Shown one piece after another: positions 1-5,978 of a stretch of 5,978 nucleotides of DNA. Position 1 is the first letter of the stretch, and each line of letters opens with the position of its first letter. This DNA comes from a virus (taxonomy: Duplodnaviria > Heunggongvirae > Uroviricota > Caudoviricetes). Position numbers: made by a program. Where the stretch lies: the IMG/VR virus record IMGVR_UViG_2657245027_000012; one strand, 5' to 3'.

Positions 1-3000
1 AAGTCATCGGGCATTATCTGAACATAAAACACTATCAATAAGTTGGAGTCATTACCGTGAATTCAAACAGGGTTCTGGCGTCGTTCTCGTACTGTTTTCC
101 CCAGGCCAGCGCCTTAGCATTAACTTCCGGAGCCACACCGGTGCAAACCTCAGCCAGCAGGGTGTGGAAGTAGGACATTTTCATGTCAGGCCACTTCTTT
201 CCTGAGCGGGGCTTTGCTCTCACGTTGTGAACTTCTGAAGCGGTGATGACGCCGAGCCGTAATTTGTGCCATGCATCATCCCCCTGTTCGACAGCTCTCA
301 CGTCGATCCCGGTACGCTGCAGGATAATGTCCGGTATCATGCTGCCACCTTCTGCTCAGTGGCTTTCTGTTTCAGGAATCCAAGAGCTTTCACTGCTTCG
401 GCCTGTGTCAGTTCTGACGATGCGCGAATGTCGCGGCGAAATATCTGGGAACAGAGCGGCAATAAGTCGTCATCCCATGTTTTATCCAGGGCGATCAGCA
501 GAGTGTTAATCTCCTGCATGGTTTCATCGTTAACCGGAGTGATGTCGCGTTCTGGCTGCCAAACGTCAGCGAGCTGGTTGATATGGTTTACGAGTATTGC
601 CGGAAGCGTGGCCTGTATCCGGATGCAGAGTCTTATCCGTGGAAATCGAACGCGCATTACTGGTTGGTTACCAACTTGTACCAGAACATGCGGGCCAATG
701 CGCTGACTGACGCGGAATTACGGCGCAAGGCTGCCGATGAACTGTCCTGTATGACCGCGCGAATTAACCGTGGTGAGGCGATACCTGAACCAGTAAAACA
801 ACTTCCTGTCATGGGCGGTAGACCTCTAAATCGTGCACAGGCTCTGGCGAAGATCGCAGAAATCAAAGCTAAGTTCGGACTGAAAGGAGCAAGTGTATGA
901 CGGGCAAAGAGGCAATTATTCATTACCTGGGGACGCATAAGAGCTTCTGTGCACAGGACGTTGCCGCGGTAACAGGTGCAACCGTAACCAGCATAAATCA
1001 GGCTGCGGCTAAAATGGCGCGGGCAGGAATCCTGGTCGTTGATGGTAAGGTCTGGCGAACGGTGTATTACCGGTTCGCTACCAGAGAAGAACGGGAAGGA
1101 AAGGTGAGCACGAATCTGATTTTTAAGGAGTGTCGCCAGAGTGCCGCGATGAAACGGGTACTGAGGGTATATAAAAGAACATCAATGGGAACACAATGAT
1201 GAAACAGGTGAGTTGAGTTCAAACTGTAGTACAATTCTCTCCAGTTTGAACAGGAAAGAATATGCTATGAACCCTTATATTTATCTTGGTGGTGCAATAC
1301 TTGCAGAGGTCATTGGTACAACCTTAATGAAGTTTTCAGAAGGTTTTACACGGTTATGGCCATCTGTTGGTACAATTATTTGTTATTGTGCATCATTCTG
1401 GTTATTAGCTCAGACGCTGGCTTATATTCCTACAGGGATTGCTTATGGTATCTGGTCAGGAGTCGGTATTGTCCTGATTAGCTTACTGTCATGGGGATTT
1501 TTTCTGCCAACGGCTGGACCTGCCAGCCATTATAGGCATGATGTTGATTTGTGCCGGTGTGTTGGTTATTAATTTATTGTCACGAAGCACACCACATTAA
1601 AATAATTTGTTTCTAAACGACTAAAATATGGAGGCTCTTATATTTATATGAGCCTCGTTTTATGCTTTTTGTTAATGTCTTTATTTTTTATGTATTCTTT
1701 TGTGCTTTCAAGATTATGGCGTAAGAAAATTGCAATACGATTATTGTTGTATATTCAAGATAATGTGACCTTAATTGTCTTTTTAAATAAAAATTAAACA
1801 AAAATTATATCCCACCACTAAGGTTTATAAAAGCATACGTTAGCAGGTGTCACCATGAAAAAAGCCATAGCATATATGCGATTTTCATCACCAGGTCAGA
1901 TGTCTGGCGACTCATTAAACCGACAGAGAAGACTTATTGCTGAATGGTTAAAGGTAAATAGTGATTATTATCTTGATACCATAACATATGAAGATTTAGG
2001 ATTAAGTGCATTCAAAGGAAAGCATGCACAATCAGGAGCTTTTTCGGAATTTTTAGATGCTATAGAGCATGGTTATATATTGCCAGGAACTACATTGTTA
2101 GTTGAAAGTCTGGACAGACTTTCAAGAGAAAAAGTCGGTGAAGCGATTGAACGTCTGAAATTGATTTTGAATCACGGTATTGATGTTATAACTCTTTGCG
2201 ACAATACAGTCTATAATATTGACTCTTTGAATGAGCCATATTCATTAATAAAAGCCATACTTATAGCACAAAGGGCAAATGAAGAAAGCGAGATAAAGTC
2301 AAGTCGGGTTAAATTATCATGGAAGAAAAAACGGCAGGATGCACTGGAATCAGGTACGATTATGACGGCGTCTTGTCCGAGATGGCTCTCCTTAGATGAC
2401 AAAAGAACGGCTTTTGTTCCAGACCCCGACAGGGTGAAAACTATTGAGATAATTTTTAAACTCAGGATGGAAAGGCGCTCATTGAATGCAATAGCCAAGT
2501 ATTTAAATGATCATGCTGTAAAGAATTTCTCAGGAAAAGAAAGTGCATGGGGACCTTCTGTAATTGAAAAATTATTAGCGAATAAAGCTCTGATAGGTAT
2601 ATGCGTACCTTCATATCGTGCAAGAGGGAAAGGGATAAGTGAAATCGCTGGCTATTATCCCAGAGTCATATCAGATGATTTGTTTTACGCTGTACAGGAA
2701 ATTCGGTTGGCACCTTTTGGTATTAGCAATAGTAGCAAGAATCCTATGCTAATAAATCTACTTCGAACAGTTATGAAGTGTGAGGCTTGTGGTAATACCA
2801 TGATTGTTCATGCGGTATCTGGAAGTTTGCATGGCTATTATGTTTGTCCGATGAGAAGATTACATCGATGTGACAGGCCATCAATAAAAAGAGATTTGGT
2901 TGATTATAATATCATTAATGAATTGCTTTTTAATTGTAGCAAAATTCAACCAGTTGAAAACAAGAAAGATGCTAATGAAACTTTAGAGTTAAAAATTATT

Positions 3001-5978
3001 GAGCTTCAGATGAAAATTAATAATTTAATCGTTGCATTGTCTGTCGCGCCTGAAGTTACCGCTATAGCAGAGAAAATAAGACTATTAGATAAGGAATTAC
3101 GAAGGGCTTCGGTATCATTGAAAACTTTGAAGAGTAAAGGTGCAAATTCATTCAGTGATTTTTATGCTATTGACTTAACCAGTAAAAATGGACGAGAGTT
3201 ATGCCGTACACTTGCCTATAAAACATTCGAAAAAATCATAATTAATACGGATAATAAAACCTGTGATATCTATTTTATGAATGGCATTGTTTTTAAACAC
3301 TATCCTTTAATGAAAGTAATATCCGCCCAGCAGGCGATAAGTGCTCTCAAATATATGGTTGATGGTGAGATTTATTTCTAAATAATGATCTCGGATTTTA
3401 AGTTATGCTATGGTGATAAAGTGCAAGACAGAATTAATTATCTTTGACGAAAATTAATGGGTAATTACTTTGTTTGCTCCCACAAGCGAGTTTTGTACGG
3501 CTGTATTGGGGTAGTAAATGAGCTATACAATCTTAATCATTTGTTAGGTGAGAACTCTTGGTCGCAGATTCAAATACTGAAAATACGTGACAAATTATTA
3601 TGAGCAAAATGGTGTATGTCACGTATTTTGAATGGTAGGTTAAAAAATAACACCGACTTTCGTAGGTATTACTAATAATAAAGCAGAGTTTTTAGATAGT
3701 ATCAATGTGCTTTGTGTATATTGTGGCAAATAATTGAGTTGGGGGTACAATTGTGATTGCTTTTGCATGAACATTGCGCCTTTATGCATAATGAGATAAA
3801 GGAATATCAAATAAAATAACGATAGGTCATAACAAAGAGGTTTTTATGAAAACACTTATCGTTTCAACTGTATTGGCATTCATAACATTTTCTGCGCAGG
3901 CTGCAGCATTTCAGGTCACTAGTAATGAAATAAAAACAGGAGAGCAACTTACAACGTCTCATGTCTTTTCTGGATTTGGGTGTGAAGGTGGTAATACATC
4001 GCCCTCATTAACCTGGTCTGGTGTTCCTGAAGGTACCAAAAGCTTTGCCGTAACTGTATATGATCCAGATGCACCTACAGGCAGTGGTTGGTGGCATTGG
4101 ACTGTTGTTAATATTCCAGCAACAGTAACATATTTGCCCGTTGATGCAGGGAGACGTGATGGAACAAAACTGCCGACTGGTGCTGTTCAAGGCCGAAATG
4201 ATTTTGGCTATGCTGGGTTTGGTGGCGCATGTCCTCCTAAAGGAGATAAACCACATCATTACCAGTTTAAAGTATGGGCTCTAAAAACTGAAAAGATTCC
4301 TGTAGATTCTAACTCCAGCGGAGCGTTAGTTGGTTATATGCTTAATGCTAATAAAATCGCAACCGCTGAGATAACACCAGTTTATGAGATAAAGTAGGGT
4401 GAGAGTATGCTGGCAAGAGGTAAGACTAACTTAAAGATCGAAGAAATACGGATGCATAAACATCATGAGATTCATAGGGTTAAGCCTATTATGCCAGCTT
4501 TGTGTCGTATCCGTCAGGGAAAGAAAGTTATCAATTGGGAGACGCATACTTTAACTGTTGATAATAATCAAATAATATTATTTCCTTGTGGTTATGAATT
4601 TTATATTGAGAATTATCCTGAAGCAGGGCTTTATCTTGCAGAAATGCTTTACTTACCCATTGATTTAATTGAGAGTTTCCAAAAACTTTATACGGTAACT
4701 GATCAAATACGTAACAAAACAAGTTTCTTTTTACCTCAGAATCCTGAGTTAATATATTGTTGGGAGCAACTAAAAACATCTGTTTCCCGAGGCTTCTCAA
4801 CTAAAATTCAGGAGCACTTAGCAATGGGCGTTCTACTTTCGTTAGGAGTGAATCATGTTAATCATTTACTTTTATCATATAGTAAACAATCATTGATAAG
4901 TCGTTGTTATAACCTGCTGCTATCCGAACCCGGCACAAAATGGACAGCAAACAAGGTTGCTCGATATCTCTACATTTCTGTTTCTACATTACATCGCCGT
5001 CTAGCAAGCGAGGGGGTAAGTTTCCAAAGTATACTGGACGATGTGAGGTTAAATAATGCGTTGTCTGCTATACAAACGACGGTAAAACCTATAAGCGAGA
5101 TTGCCAGAGAAAATGGTTATAAGTGTCCTTCTCGTTTTACTGAAAGATTTCATAATCGTTTTAATATAACACCAAGAGAGATAAGAAAAGCTTCCAGAGA
5201 GTAAAAGTGTTTTAAGAAGGAGCAATTCTATCGATTTTGATTTTGGGAAATCAACACGGCATAATTATGTCACCGGAGCCTGAACAACTCCGGTGACTTC
5301 TGCGCTAAACGGGGACGTTTATGCGCACATACAATCCAAACTCTCTTCTCCCTTCACAGATGCAGAAATGCACCTGCAATTCTTTGCATCTAGCGTTTGA
5401 CCTCTGCGGAGGTGAAGCGTGAACCTCTCACAAGACGGCATCAAATTACATCGCGGCAACTTCACCGCTATCGGTCGGCAGATCCAGCCTTATCTGGAGG
5501 AGGGCAAATGCTTTCGCATGGTGCTTAAACCGTGGCGTGAGAAACGCAGTCTTTCCCAGAATGCACTCAGCCACATGTGGTACAGCGAAATCAGTGAATA
5601 CCTCATCAGCAGGGGTAAAACGTTCGCCACTCCAGCTTGGGTAAAAGATGCTCTCAAACACACATATCTCGGTTATGAAACCAAAGACCTGGTTGATGTC
5701 GTAACCGGTGATATCACCACTATCCAGTCGTTACGCCATACCTCCGACCTTGATACCGGAGAGATGTATGTCTTCCTGTGTAAGGTTGAGGCCTGGGCGA
5801 TGAATATTGGCTGCCACCTGACTATTCCGCAGAGCTGCGAGTTCCAGCTGCTGCGTGATAAGCAGGAGGCGTAGTGATCCTACCCACGTAATATGGACAC
5901 AGGCCTAAGCGAGGTTCTGGTTTTCAAATTGTTCCGGACTGAGGCCGCCACACCAACTGTGCCGCCGCCACCGATTGT

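What the first reader, a model, noticed from the sequence alone, without database searches (positions are those of the whole stretch)
1855..3381. Integrase-type large serine recombinase with no recognisable partner sites in the window
ybcK encodes a full-length large serine recombinase with no obvious disruptions. Catalytic Ser context, DRL.R motif, recombinase domain, zinc ribbon and coiled-coil region all appear present. Enzymes of this class catalyse integration, excision or inversion between short (about 40-50 bp) imperfectly palindromic sites, usually located next to their gene. I could not identify such sites by eye in the flanking AT-rich intergenic regions (only chance-level 8-10 bp matches). 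Its substrate and role are, as far as I know, uncharacterised: it could mobilise the cargo block, invert a promoter-bearing segment, or be an orphan.
Basis: partly seen in the sequence, partly recalled or inferred. Interest (0 to 1): 0.55.

Follow-up and report, generated by a model that had tools for sequence, protein, structure and literature searches.

The report
Orphan large serine recombinase YbcK
The gene is a real, intact and selectively maintained large serine recombinase (E. coli ybcK), carried as accessory cargo inside a lambda-like prophage that has its own integrase; nothing at this locus, or in about 1,400 E. coli genomes, shows what DNA it acts on, so it is a known gene with a still unknown substrate.

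Summary
1855-3381 (+) is ybcK, a 508-aa large serine recombinase (LSR). It has the resolvase, recombinase and zinc-ribbon domains, a coiled-coil hairpin, Ser11 and four invariant Cys. A confident model matches solved serine integrases over its full length.

It is not the prophage's integrase. It lies in a low-GC cargo block (1200-5236) in the ren-ninB slot of DLP12/Bievrevirus-type lambdoid phages, which have their own tyrosine Int/Xis.

In 5,426 complete E. coli genomes, ybcK occurs in 1,423. A query spanning emrE, ylcJ and the ybcK start is covered in as many genomes (1,397) as ybcK itself. dN/dS is 0.09-0.17. No inversion or excision variant was found in 666 collinear genomes or 80 viral contigs. 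No att-like site rises above chance. The cargo after ybcK varies (11 types), but its breakpoints are staggered.

Relatives at 37-38% identity sit beside qmcA truncated at one identical codon. I infer they are island integrases, so the wider family probably does integrate.

In K-12 the gene has an H-NS-flagged promoter region and a Rho-dependent terminator upstream.

Verdict: a known, annotated orphan LSR. The invertase and cargo-mobiliser readings are not supported, and its substrate remains unknown. Interest is moderate to low.

The parts
1855..3381 (+). ybcK coding sequence, a 508-aa large serine recombinase (stop codon included)
   Evidence: ORF; three Pfam domains; 100% identical to E. coli loci L004/L005; RefSeq annotation 'ybcK: recombinase family protein'.
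1864..2337 (+). Catalytic (resolvase-type) domain plus long E-helix, aa 4-161; Ser11 codon TCA at 1885-1887
   Evidence: PF00239 E=6.6e-19; R9, S11, Q15, D87, R88, R91, R140, E144 invariant in 60 homologues; helix 128-166 in the model.
2425..2706 (+). Recombinase (DNA-binding) domain, aa 191-284
   Evidence: PF07508 E=8.7e-14; helical in the model.
2758..2925 (+). Zinc-ribbon domain, aa 302-357, with Cys309, 312, 331, 339
   Evidence: PF13408 E=7.9e-8; the four Cys are invariant.
2959..3135 (+). Coiled-coil hairpin, aa 369-427
   Evidence: Two long helices, 369-397 and 401-427, in the AF2 model; the full-length alignment to serine integrases spans this part.
3184..3378 (+). C-terminal helix/beta-sheet domain, aa 444-508 (conserved R447, C470, G477, P484)
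   Evidence: Model; invariant columns among orthologues; aa 348-508 match phrog_2371.
1601..1854 (+). 5' flank that travels with ybcK: emrE terminator-like hairpin 1630-1656, small ORF ylcJ 1648-1797, promoter GTGACC(1765)-17-TAAAAA. Published work places a Rho-dependent terminator in this untranslated region
   Evidence: Dyad scan; RefSeq ylcJ annotation; promoter and H-NS flag in PMC3946193; Rho/NusG dependence in PMC4150792. A query spanning emrE, ylcJ and the ybcK start is covered at >=80% in 1,397 genomes, the same number as ybcK itself.
3382..3845 (+). 3' intergenic region. 3382-3455 is a strongly diverged homologue of the sequence after ybcK in other phage alleles; 3457-3603 is a 48-aa ORF with no family; 3723-3751 is the ybcL promoter
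   Evidence: Alignments; no Pfam or PHROG hit for the small ORF; promoter scan and PMC3946193. Segment 3385-3760 is present in 674 genomes.
1200..5236 (+). Low-GC accessory ('moron') block in the ren-ninB slot: emrE, ylcJ, ybcK, ybcL, ybcM
   Evidence: GC is 0.362 against 0.52 and 0.50 in the flanks. Another lambdoid prophage has ren followed directly by ninB; others carry different cargo in the slot. There are 11 cargo variants between ybcK and ybcN in 76 loci.
1267..1600 (+). emrE (SMR efflux pump), upstream partner of ybcK in all E. coli arrangements examined; frameshifted (+1 near 1498-1508) in this window
   Evidence: PF00893; comparison with six intact alleles; a query spanning emrE, ylcJ and the ybcK start is covered in 1,397 genomes.
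3846..5204 (+). ybcL (PEBP/Raf-kinase-inhibitor-like, 3846-4397) and ybcM (AraC-type regulator, 4407-5204): the DLP12-type cargo after ybcK
   Evidence: Pfam. The same pair lies without ybcK at the chromosomal fliE locus in about 2,627 genomes.
5237..5297 (+). Conserved right border of the cargo slot: promoter-like TTGATT-17-CATAAT (5237-5265) and 10-bp perfect hairpin GTCACCGGAG...CTCCGGTGAC (5269-5297)
   Evidence: Homology to all other cargo types resumes here or within about 45 bp (window 5236-5280); promoter scan; coordinates.
1605..1617 (+). Left copy of a 13-nt imperfect direct repeat, ATTTGTTTCTAAA (weak lead only)
   Evidence: It lies where the fliE-locus copy stops matching. 9 of 2000 shuffles reach this match. 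No excision or circle junction was found.
3370..3382 (+). Right copy of the 13-nt repeat, ATTTATTTCTAAA, overlapping the ybcK stop codon (weak lead only)
   Evidence: It lies where the DLP12-type and 4A7-type alleles drop from about 97% identity to weak homology. Statistics.

Best explanation
ybcK encodes an intact large serine recombinase that is accessory cargo, not the integrase, of a DLP12/Bievrevirus-type lambdoid (pro)phage.

Shown:
- The protein has every structural and catalytic element of a serine integrase.
- The gene sits in the low-GC cargo block between ren and ninB/ybcN.
- The phages and prophages that carry it have their own tyrosine Int/Xis at the prophage end.
- In E. coli it was seen in one context only, behind emrE-ylcJ.
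- It evolves under purifying selection.
- The locus shows no inversion, excision or fixed-site cassette exchange across hundreds of genomes.
- No att-like site is detectable next to it.

Inferred:
- If expressed, it would act like other LSRs. Dimers would bind two different ~40-50-bp sites through the recombinase and zinc-ribbon domains. The coiled coils would hold the synapse. Ser11 would cut at a central dinucleotide, followed by subunit rotation and religation.
- Its partner sites are not both in this window. They lie elsewhere or are no longer present, so here it is an orphan.
- By descent it belongs to an Enterobacterales LSR lineage. More distant members sit beside qmcA truncated at one codon, which I read as island integration into that gene.
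- It most likely reached the phage slot as the integrase of a small cassette or island fragment and has been carried in that slot since.
- In K-12 it is kept largely silent (H-NS-flagged promoter region, Rho-dependent terminator in the 5' UTR, Hfq/polyP binding).
For: Architecture, catalytic residues and fold.

Not the phage integrase: phage 4A7 has int and xis next to an icd fragment about 10 kb from ybcK. Prophage STEC799 has icd-int-xis. DLP12 in strain LR-50 has intD at tRNA-Arg.

Cargo slot: GC 0.36 against 0.50-0.52. ren is followed directly by ninB in another prophage, and other cargo occupies the slot elsewhere.

Single context: ybcK is in 1,423 of 5,426 genomes, with >=80% coverage in 1,397. 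The query spanning emrE, ylcJ and the ybcK start is also covered in 1,397.

Selection: dN/dS is 0.09 (4A7 allele) and 0.17 (SCU-102 allele). Full-length orthologues at 40-61% identity occur across Enterobacterales.

No rearrangement: 666 of 674 DLP12-type genomes are collinear. All 80 IMG/VR loci are collinear with no minus-strand segment. No genome carries either hypothetical excision junction at high identity. Cargo breakpoints are staggered at +9, +66, +212, +326 and about +420.

No sites.

Family integrates: the LSRs of L019 (Lonsdalea) and L020 (Erwinia) each lie next to qmcA truncated at codon 111/112, at the same nucleotide junction.

Silencing: PMC4150792, PMC3946193, PMC10954037.
Against: Purifying selection within one fixed context is not explained by passive carriage, so some activity must matter to the phage or the host.

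Orthologues at about 60% identity again sit in the nin region of lambdoid prophages, in Atlantibacter (L006) and in an uncultured phage (L097). A 56% orthologue sits between tail genes and ogr of a P2-like Yersinia prophage. That recurrence suggests a phage-related function rather than chance.

The origin as a cassette or island integrase is inference. The junctions with the ybcK-less fliE-locus copy are a replacement, not a clean insertion.

A knock-out and over-expression changed sabinene tolerance in BL21(DE3) (PMC7181518). The gene is therefore not fully inert, although the mechanism is unknown.
Confidence: 0.55

Rival explanations
1. YbcK is maintained because it recombines sites outside this window, acting in trans for the phage or the lysogen. 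The sites could lie elsewhere in the phage genome, in the host chromosome, or on a competing phage, satellite or plasmid.
For: Purifying selection. Recurrence in accessory regions of temperate phages from several genera, alongside the phages' own integrases. A recent precedent exists for other E. coli cryptic-prophage serine recombinases having a defence role through inversion (PinQ, PMC12529663).
Against: No target is known. The one site tested, qmcA (inferred target of the 37-38% relatives), is covered at >=80% in 5,418 of 5,421 E. coli genomes with a match. No qmcA-like site is in the window. There is no PADLOC hit. LSRs without a partner factor normally recombine only an attP x attB pair, and no such pair was found.
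Confidence: 0.2
2. ylcJ-ybcK is a self-mobile single-gene LSR cassette of about 1.77 kb, bounded by the 13-nt direct repeats at 1605-1617 and 3370-3382. These would be the common core of attL and attR, and the cassette would insert into accessory slots of phages and plasmids.
For: The repeat lies at two independently defined homology breakpoints, and 9 of 2000 shuffles reach it. The Yersinia orthologue has its own 13-nt repeat, 1,755 nt apart against 1,765 nt here (1 of 300 shuffles). In Pantoea, a block of -223 to +56 around the gene is 94% identical in two unrelated contexts. Short Logan contigs of 2.1-2.9 kb carry only this gene.
Against: The repeat was found post hoc in AT-rich DNA, and 18 of 20 orthologue loci have none. 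The arms show no dyad symmetry (6-8 of 25 positions). No empty-site or circle junction exists in 5,426 E. coli genomes, IMG/VR or JGI metagenomes. E. coli shows one context only and a median of one copy. The Logan contigs are not circular. The Ewingella and Pantoea block ends fall at gene boundaries and carry no repeat.
Confidence: 0.1
3. YbcK inverts a promoter-bearing segment or excises/mobilises the ybcL-ybcM cargo block within this window. These are the reader's first two options.
For: Cargo immediately downstream of ybcK is highly variable, with 11 types in 76 loci. ybcL-ybcM exists elsewhere without ybcK.
Against: No inverted arrangement appears in the 80 viral loci or the 666 genomes. 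There are no inverted repeats. Cargo types share nested left parts of 66, 212, 326 and about 420 bp instead of one fixed junction. The fliE-locus copy retains a few bases of the ren end, the sequence up to the ybcN start and a phage-type porin, which I read as a degraded prophage, and strain HH45 shows a replacement rather than an excision scar.
Confidence: 0.03
4. ybcK is a functionless relic that happens not to have decayed yet.
For: It is transcriptionally silenced in K-12. Deletion variants exist, including an emrE'-'ybcK fusion and an IS1-mediated deletion leaving 25 nt of the gene. No activity is visible in genomes.
Against: dN/dS is 0.09-0.17 with dS up to 0.13. 1,397 of 1,423 carriers cover at least 80% of the gene. 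All catalytic and zinc-binding residues are invariant across 60 homologues. The gene is present in plaque-forming or sequenced phages.
Confidence: 0.07
5. YbcK has been co-opted for a role that does not involve recombination, for example as a DNA-binding regulator affecting envelope or stress tolerance.
For: Over-expression raised sabinene tolerance by 128%, and a knock-out lowered it, in BL21(DE3) (PMC7181518).
Against: This is a single study with no mechanism. Strict conservation of the nucleophile and the catalytic Arg/Asp residues would not be needed for a pure DNA-binding role.
Confidence: 0.05

Closest known systems
Phage serine integrases (PhiC31, Bxb1, A118/LI integrase, and the serine integrase of PDB entries 9dxd/9dxh)
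   Same: Same domain order: catalytic domain with a Ser nucleophile, long E-helix, recombinase domain, and a zinc ribbon with an inserted coiled coil. Full-length structural alignments have E 2e-18 to 4e-10.
   Different: Sequence identity in those alignments is only 14-20%, and there is no sequence-level PDB hit. The gene is not next to a phage attachment site and is not the integrase of its phage, which uses a tyrosine Int/Xis. No att sites and no directionality factor are known.
LSRs beside truncated qmcA in Lonsdalea britannica (L019) and Erwinia sp. (L020), seen here
   Same: They belong to the same protein family, at 37-38% identity over the full length with similar size.
   Different: Each lies next to a qmcA gene truncated at codon 111/112, which I read as the edge of an inserted island. 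The far end of each island was not within the DNA fetched. YbcK lies inside a prophage with no truncated host gene beside it, and E. coli qmcA is essentially never interrupted.
Small serine invertases of E. coli cryptic prophages (PinE, PinQ, PinR; Gin/Cin/Hin type)
   Same: They are serine recombinases encoded in cryptic lambdoid prophages and share the catalytic domain (phrog_125 hit for aa 1-258). PinQ was recently shown to have a physiological role (PMC12529663).
   Different: Per that paper's introduction, small serine recombinases act as invertases or resolvases. From my own knowledge they are about 190 aa with a C-terminal helix-turn-helix and sit beside an invertible segment bounded by inverted repeats. 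YbcK is 508 aa with recombinase, zinc-ribbon and coiled-coil domains, and has no such segment.
LSR transposases TnpX/TndX of Tn4451/Tn5397 (comparison from my own knowledge, not tested by sequence here)
   Same: They are large serine recombinases that move a small element carrying cargo and excise it as a circle.
   Different: Those elements occur in several contexts with defined ends. In E. coli, ybcK has one context, no circle or empty-site junction, and no defined ends.

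Membership tests
Large serine recombinase (serine integrase) protein family | N-terminal resolvase-type catalytic domain with the serine nucleophile and conserved Arg/Asp/Glu residues | tested here: met
   PF00239, 68.9 bits against a cut-off of 23.3. R9, S11, Q15, D87, R88, R91, R140 and E144 are invariant in 60 homologues.
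Large serine recombinase (serine integrase) protein family | Recombinase domain followed by a zinc-ribbon domain with four Cys | tested here: met
   PF07508 at 52.1 bits and PF13408 at 33 bits, both above their cut-offs. C309, C312, C331 and C339 are invariant.
Large serine recombinase (serine integrase) protein family | Coiled-coil motif emerging from the zinc-ribbon domain | tested here: met
   The AF2 model shows antiparallel helices 369-397 and 401-427. This is a prediction, not an experiment.
Large serine recombinase (serine integrase) protein family | Overall fold like solved serine integrases | tested here: met
   Foldseek gives 9dxd_A E=2e-18, 9dxh_A 6e-17, PhiC31 1e-13, Bxb1 1e-13 and 4kis 4e-10, with alignments of about 530 columns. 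TM-scores are low (0.2-0.47) because the domains are flexibly linked.
Large serine recombinase (serine integrase) protein family | Catalyses recombination between a cognate attP/attB pair | not testable with these tools
Integrase of its own element (prophage or island integrase) | Gene lies at the edge of the integrated element, next to attL/attR and often a split host gene | tested here: not met
   ybcK lies between ren and ybcN, internal to the prophage. int/xis are at the prophage end by icd or tRNA-Arg. No truncated host gene is adjacent. The feature is met by the 37-38% relatives at qmcA.
Integrase of its own element (prophage or island integrase) | Occupied and empty sites both exist in the population, differing by the element with a short shared core | tested here: not met
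   ybcK-less emrE-ybcL junctions exist in 2,627 genomes, but at 88-94% identity and as a replacement of 62 bp by 2,139 bp. No junction was found at the 13-nt repeats.
DNA invertase system | Invertible segment bounded by inverted repeats next to the recombinase gene, seen in both orientations | tested here: not met
   No inverted repeats beyond chance. Only one orientation appears in 80 viral loci and 666 genomes.
LSR-driven transposon or self-mobile cassette (TnpX/TndX type) | Same element in several contexts or copies with defined ends, plus a circular intermediate | tested here: inconclusive
   E. coli shows one context and a median of one copy, with no circle junction. Pantoea has a 1.8-kb single-gene block, and Ewingella a 3.9-kb umuDC-LSR block, each in two unrelated contexts. 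13-nt flanking repeats occur in E. coli and Yersinia only.
Phage moron / accessory cargo | Dispensable insert in a phage backbone slot, with deviant composition, its own promoter, and variable presence among related phages | tested here: met
   GC is 0.36 against 0.50-0.52. The slot is empty in one prophage and differently filled in another. Own promoters are reported for ybcK and ybcL. There are 11 cargo variants.
Known anti-phage defence systems | Match to a defence-system protein model | tested here: not met
   No PADLOC hit for YbcK, YlcJ, the 48-aa ORF, YbcL or YbcM at E<=0.01.

The most novel reading that the evidence does not exclude
YbcK-type recombinases form a lineage of large serine recombinases that temperate phages of Enterobacterales keep in their accessory slots for something other than integrating the phage. 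One possibility is a roughly 1.77-kb self-inserting single-gene cassette bounded by short direct repeats. Another is a trans-acting recombinase aimed at host, satellite or rival-phage DNA. Either would be a mode of LSR biology not yet described for E. coli phages.
Probability: 0.15. Interest if true: 0.65.

Novelty: already known. Interest (0 to 1): 0.35.

Why it matters
ybcK is present in about a quarter of complete E. coli genomes, including K-12 and B laboratory strains, and in plaque-forming lambdoid phages. It is one of the few large serine recombinases native to E. coli.

If its sites were found, it could become a native-host integration tool. It might also explain why phages that already have an integrase keep a second, unrelated recombinase under selection.

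As it stands, this is an accurate description of an annotated gene of unknown substrate. The work here narrows the options. The gene is not the phage integrase, not an invertase, and not a mobiliser of the neighbouring cargo. It also gives a concrete lead, the relatives that sit beside a truncated qmcA, for working out the family's site preferences.

Tried and rejected
1. Direct and inverted repeats in 1100-5500 were at chance level only.
2. A dyad-symmetry scan (20-nt arms around a 2-nt core) of four intergenic regions against shuffles found only the emrE terminator hairpin.
3. No conserved flank sequence or conserved neighbour gene was found among 17 orthologue loci.
4. A synthetic excision junction joining 1607 to 3681 found no genome above 94% identity. 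The 2,627 hits are the old chromosomal fliE-locus copy.
5. A synthetic excision junction at the 13-nt repeats was covered by 0 of 5,426 genomes. The one odd hit, strain LR-50, is an IS1-mediated deletion.
6. Circle-junction and empty-site patterns gave 0 matches in IMG/VR and in JGI metagenome contigs.
7. Fixed-site cassette exchange downstream of ybcK was rejected because breakpoints are staggered and two 'types' are only IS insertions.
8. A conserved ybcK-esterase pair was rejected. The esterases of phage 4A7 and the Enterobacter plasmid share only local 30% identity over 86 aa.
9. qmcA as the YbcK target in E. coli was rejected. The gene is covered at >=80% in 5,418 of 5,421 genomes, and no qmcA-like site is in the window.
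10. Short Logan contigs are not excised circles, since they have no terminal overlap.
11. No PADLOC defence model matched, and no Rfam family matched in the window.
12. PDB searches by sequence were uninformative: none with the single sequence and one spurious RING2 match with the profile.
13. The P22AR-C gene after ybcK in other alleles was checked as a split target gene. The C-domain is complete, in-frame stops lie upstream, and no N-terminal half was found.

Full report
WHAT THE WINDOW IS. The 5,978-base window is the early-right (nin) region of a DLP12-type lambdoid prophage of E. coli. In order it holds:
- an IS1 end (1-57)
- the start of exo on the minus strand (35-340)
- the end of replication gene P (583-900)
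- ren (897-1199)
- emrE (from 1267)
- the small ORF ylcJ (1648-1797)
- ybcK (1855-3381)
- ybcL (3846-4397)
- ybcM (4407-5204)
- ybcN/ninB (5419-5874)
- an IS3 end (5875-5978)

These assignments rest. The block 1200-5236 has 36% G+C, against 52% and 50% in the phage backbone on either side.

The ORF at 1855-3381 is uninterrupted and encodes 508 aa. Pfam finds Resolvase (aa 4-161), Recombinase (191-284) and Zn_ribbon_recom (302-357), all above their curated cut-offs. In an alignment of 60 homologues down to 26% identity, the following are invariant: the nucleophile Ser11, its partners R9, Q15, D87, R88, R91, R140 and E144, and the four zinc-binding Cys 309/312/331/339. An AlphaFold2 model (mean pLDDT 82) shows the catalytic domain with its long E-helix, a helical recombinase domain, a small beta-rich zinc domain, a two-helix hairpin at 369-427 (the coiled coil) and a C-terminal helix/sheet domain. 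Foldseek against the PDB returns full-length serine integrases as the best matches: 9dxd/9dxh, PhiC31, Bxb1 and A118 (E from 2e-18 to 4e-10). Sequence searches of the PDB gave nothing useful, so this membership rests on Pfam plus fold.

THE NEGATIVE PART ALSO HOLDS. Repeat finding over 1100-5500 returned only short, low-identity pairs. A scan for 42-bp dyad-symmetric sites in the four intergenic regions found only the emrE terminator hairpin at 1630-1656. The other regions were indistinguishable from shuffles. Rfam found nothing.

IT IS NOT THE INTEGRASE OF THIS ELEMENT. The same gene, at 97-100% protein identity, is present in sequenced phages including 4A7, Lambda_4C10, D2, 1W, 3W, Perceval, Turner and the PhiR series. 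In the three fetched (4A7, PhiR34_1, Perceval) the local order is cI-cro-cII-O-P-ren-emrE-(ylcJ)-ybcK-cargo-ybcN-ninE-ybcO-rusA-Q. Phage 4A7 has a tyrosine integrase and excisionase next to an icd fragment, about 10 kb away. Prophage STEC799 has icd-int-xis. DLP12 in strain LR-50 has intD at tRNA-Arg. ybcK is therefore a second, internal recombinase.

THE SLOT IT SITS IN. One lambdoid prophage has ren followed after 73 bp by ninB. Another fills the P-ybcN interval with unrelated genes, including a NADAR-family gene. Among 76 IMG/VR loci that carry ybcK, the DNA between the ybcK stop and the ybcN start falls into 11 types (501 to 3,373 bp). These include the DLP12 type (ybcL-ybcM), an esterase type (4A7, Perceval) and several that begin with a P22AR C-terminal-domain gene. 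Two of the types are only a 1.33-kb insertion sequence inside another type. The left breakpoints between types are staggered at +9, +66, +212, +326 and about +420 after the stop. The right border falls at or within about 45 bp of window 5236, which is a promoter-like site plus the hairpin at 5269-5297. That pattern is ordinary mosaic exchange and deletion in a cargo slot. It is not cassette exchange at one recombination site.

POPULATION GENOMICS IN 5,426 COMPLETE E. COLI GENOMES.
- ybcK is present in 1,423 genomes. At least 80% of the gene is covered in 1,397. The median is one copy, and 1,526 of 1,527 places are chromosomal.
- A query spanning emrE, ylcJ and the ybcK start is covered at >=80% in the same number, 1,397. 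Every arrangement examined has ybcK in this one context.
- The DLP12-type downstream segment (3385-3760) is in 674 genomes. In 666 of them at least 80% of the whole window is covered by one same-strand place.
- All 80 viral loci are collinear, with no minus-strand segment.
- The variants that do exist are decay: an emrE'-'ybcK fusion deletion, an IS1-mediated deletion that leaves 25 nt of ybcK and IS insertions.

THE COPY WITHOUT YBCK. About 2,627 genomes carry emrE-ybcL-ybcM contiguously between fliE and an ompC-like porin near yedK. This copy retains a few bases of the ren end and the sequence up to the ybcN start (window 1191-1606 and 3746-5421 match), and it is followed by a phage-type porin. 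I read it as a degraded DLP12-like prophage. It is about 88-92% identical to the window. Strain HH45 is 98-99% identical on both sides yet has a 62-bp chromosomal-type spacer where the window has 1607-3745. The difference is a replacement. It is not a clean insertion with a short shared core, and no genome has a recent excision scar.

THE GENE IS UNDER SELECTION. Between the window allele and the 4A7 allele, dN/dS is 0.09 with dS 0.13. Against the SCU-102 allele it is 0.17. Full-length orthologues at 40-61% identity occur in Atlantibacter, Yersinia, Pantoea, Erwinia, Kluyvera, Citrobacter, Ewingella and Duffyella.

WHERE THE ORTHOLOGUES SIT.
- The nin region of lambdoid prophages: Atlantibacter, next to a C5 methylase and upstream of NinG/Q, and an uncultured phage with DinI, DUF1367, NinG and Q downstream.
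- A P2-like Yersinia prophage, beside an autotransporter and between tail genes and ogr.
- Large Pantoea and Duffyella plasmids, between unrelated gene blocks.
- Next to yedK and umuDC in an Enterobacteriaceae isolate.

No neighbour gene and no flanking sequence is conserved across these loci. Two cases look like transferable blocks. In Pantoea, a block of -223 to +56 around the gene is 94% identical in two unrelated contexts. In Ewingella, a 3.9-kb umuD-umuC-LSR-orf block is 93% identical in two contexts. Their ends fall at gene boundaries and carry no repeats.

THE WIDER FAMILY PROBABLY DOES INTEGRATE. The LSRs of Lonsdalea britannica (L019) and an Erwinia MAG (L020) are 37-38% identical to YbcK and 44% identical to each other. 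Each lies beside a qmcA gene of which only residues 111/112 to 302 remain. The junction is at the same nucleotide (...GTACGAATGTTGGTCATGGT|). I take this as the signature of island integrases that target one site in a conserved host gene, although the far end of each island was not within the DNA fetched. I tested whether YbcK phages use that site in E. coli. qmcA is covered at >=80% in 5,418 of 5,421 genomes, and no similar sequence is in the window, so they do not.

A WEAK LEAD. A 13-nt direct repeat, ATTT[G/A]TTTCTAAA, lies at 1605-1617 and 3370-3382. These are the two places where independent comparisons lose homology. 9 of 2000 shuffles of two 61-nt windows reach this match. The Yersinia orthologue has its own 13-nt repeat at a nearly identical spacing, 1,755 against 1,765 nt (1 of 300 shuffles).

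Against this lead:
- It was found post hoc in AT-rich DNA.
- 18 of 20 loci have no such repeat.
- The arms show no dyad symmetry.
- Neither the circle junction nor the empty site exists in E. coli genomes, IMG/VR or JGI metagenomes.

I keep it as a lead only.

EXPRESSION AND PHENOTYPE FROM THE LITERATURE.
- The untranslated region upstream of ybcK contains a Rho/NusG-dependent terminator, and ybcK mRNA rises in Rho and NusG mutants (PMC4150792).
- Genomic SELEX lists promoters before ybcK (GTGACC-17-TAAAAA, at 1765 here) and before ybcL (GTGGCA-17-TACAAT, at 3723 here), both flagged H-NS (PMC3946193).
- ybcK DNA is a polyP-dependent Hfq binding site (PMC10954037).
- ybcK was up-regulated in a sabinene-adapted BL21(DE3). 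Its over-expression raised tolerance and its deletion lowered it, with no mechanism given (PMC7181518).
- No paper in the library describes a recombination substrate.

CONCLUSION. ybcK is an intact, selectively maintained large serine recombinase carried as accessory cargo in the ren-ninB slot of lambdoid phages that have their own integrase. It has no detectable partner sites here and has left no trace of activity at this locus in about 1,400 genomes. Why it is kept intact is unexplained. The gene and its family assignment are already in the databases, so novelty is low. The residual interest is the unknown substrate.

Noticed in passing
window 1498-1508 (emrE, 1267-~1600): emrE carries a +1 frameshift (GGATTTTTTCTGCC against GGATTTTTCGGCC in six other alleles) and an A61G change. 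The efflux pump is truncated after residue ~79 in this strain.
   Followed up: partly
window 1-57 and 5875-5978: The window is bounded by an IS1 end interrupting exo and by an IS3 end immediately after the ybcN stop. In K-12-like strains (L004) the IS3 copy instead interrupts ren at about 986.
   Followed up: partly
L001 6001-8153; L181 2892-5045 (E. coli fliE-yedK region): About 2,627 of 5,426 E. coli genomes carry emrE-ybcL-ybcM plus an ompC-like porin between fliE and yedK. It looks like a degraded DLP12-like prophage without ybcK. Strain HH45 has nearly DLP12-identical flanks (98-99%) around a 62-bp chromosomal-type spacer.
   Followed up: partly
L019 ~7344 and L020 ~7929: Two LSRs (44% identical to each other) in Lonsdalea and Erwinia each sit next to qmcA truncated at codon 111/112 with the same junction, which suggests a conserved LSR attachment site inside the SPFH-protein gene. 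The far end of each island was not within the fetched DNA.
   Followed up: partly
IMG/VR loci L101-L180, between ybcK stop and ybcN start: There are eleven cargo variants (501-3,373 bp) in the same slot. The same 1.33-kb insertion sequence sits at +50 after the ybcK stop in L172 and inside the DLP12 cargo in L124.
   Followed up: partly
L009/L010 6063-9934 (Ewingella); L011/L021 7778-9583 (Pantoea): A umuD-umuC-LSR-orf block (3.9 kb, 93% identical) and a single-gene LSR block (1.8 kb, 94% identical) each occur in two unrelated genomic contexts. Their ends lie at gene boundaries.
   Followed up: partly
L087 5787 and 7542 (Yersinia enterocolitica P2-like prophage): The 56% orthologue lies beside a 1,019-aa autotransporter between tail genes and ogr. 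It is flanked by a 13-nt direct repeat, CATCAATGTG[G/C]TT, 1,755 nt apart, close to the 1,765-nt spacing of the E. coli repeat.
   Followed up: partly
window 1217-1251: A perfect 10-bp inverted repeat, GTTCAAACTG...CAGTTTGAAC, with a 15-nt spacer lies between ren and emrE. It is also present with one mismatch at the fliE locus. It may be a regulatory or RNA structure of the emrE leader.
   Followed up: no
window 5269-5297: A perfect 10-bp hairpin, GTCACCGGAG-N9-CTCCGGTGAC, is conserved at the right border of every cargo type and is not followed by a T-run. Its function is unknown.
   Followed up: no
L143 and L154 (IMG/VR): Two viral-contig records begin exactly at the ybcK start codon. I suspect the provirus-calling step trimmed at a gene called 'integrase', so this is probably not a biological prophage end.
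   Followed up: no
L091 2051-3684 (E. coli EC0880B): In this prophage the same P-ybcN slot holds a 339-aa hypothetical protein and a NADAR-family protein instead of ren-emrE-ybcK.
   Followed up: no
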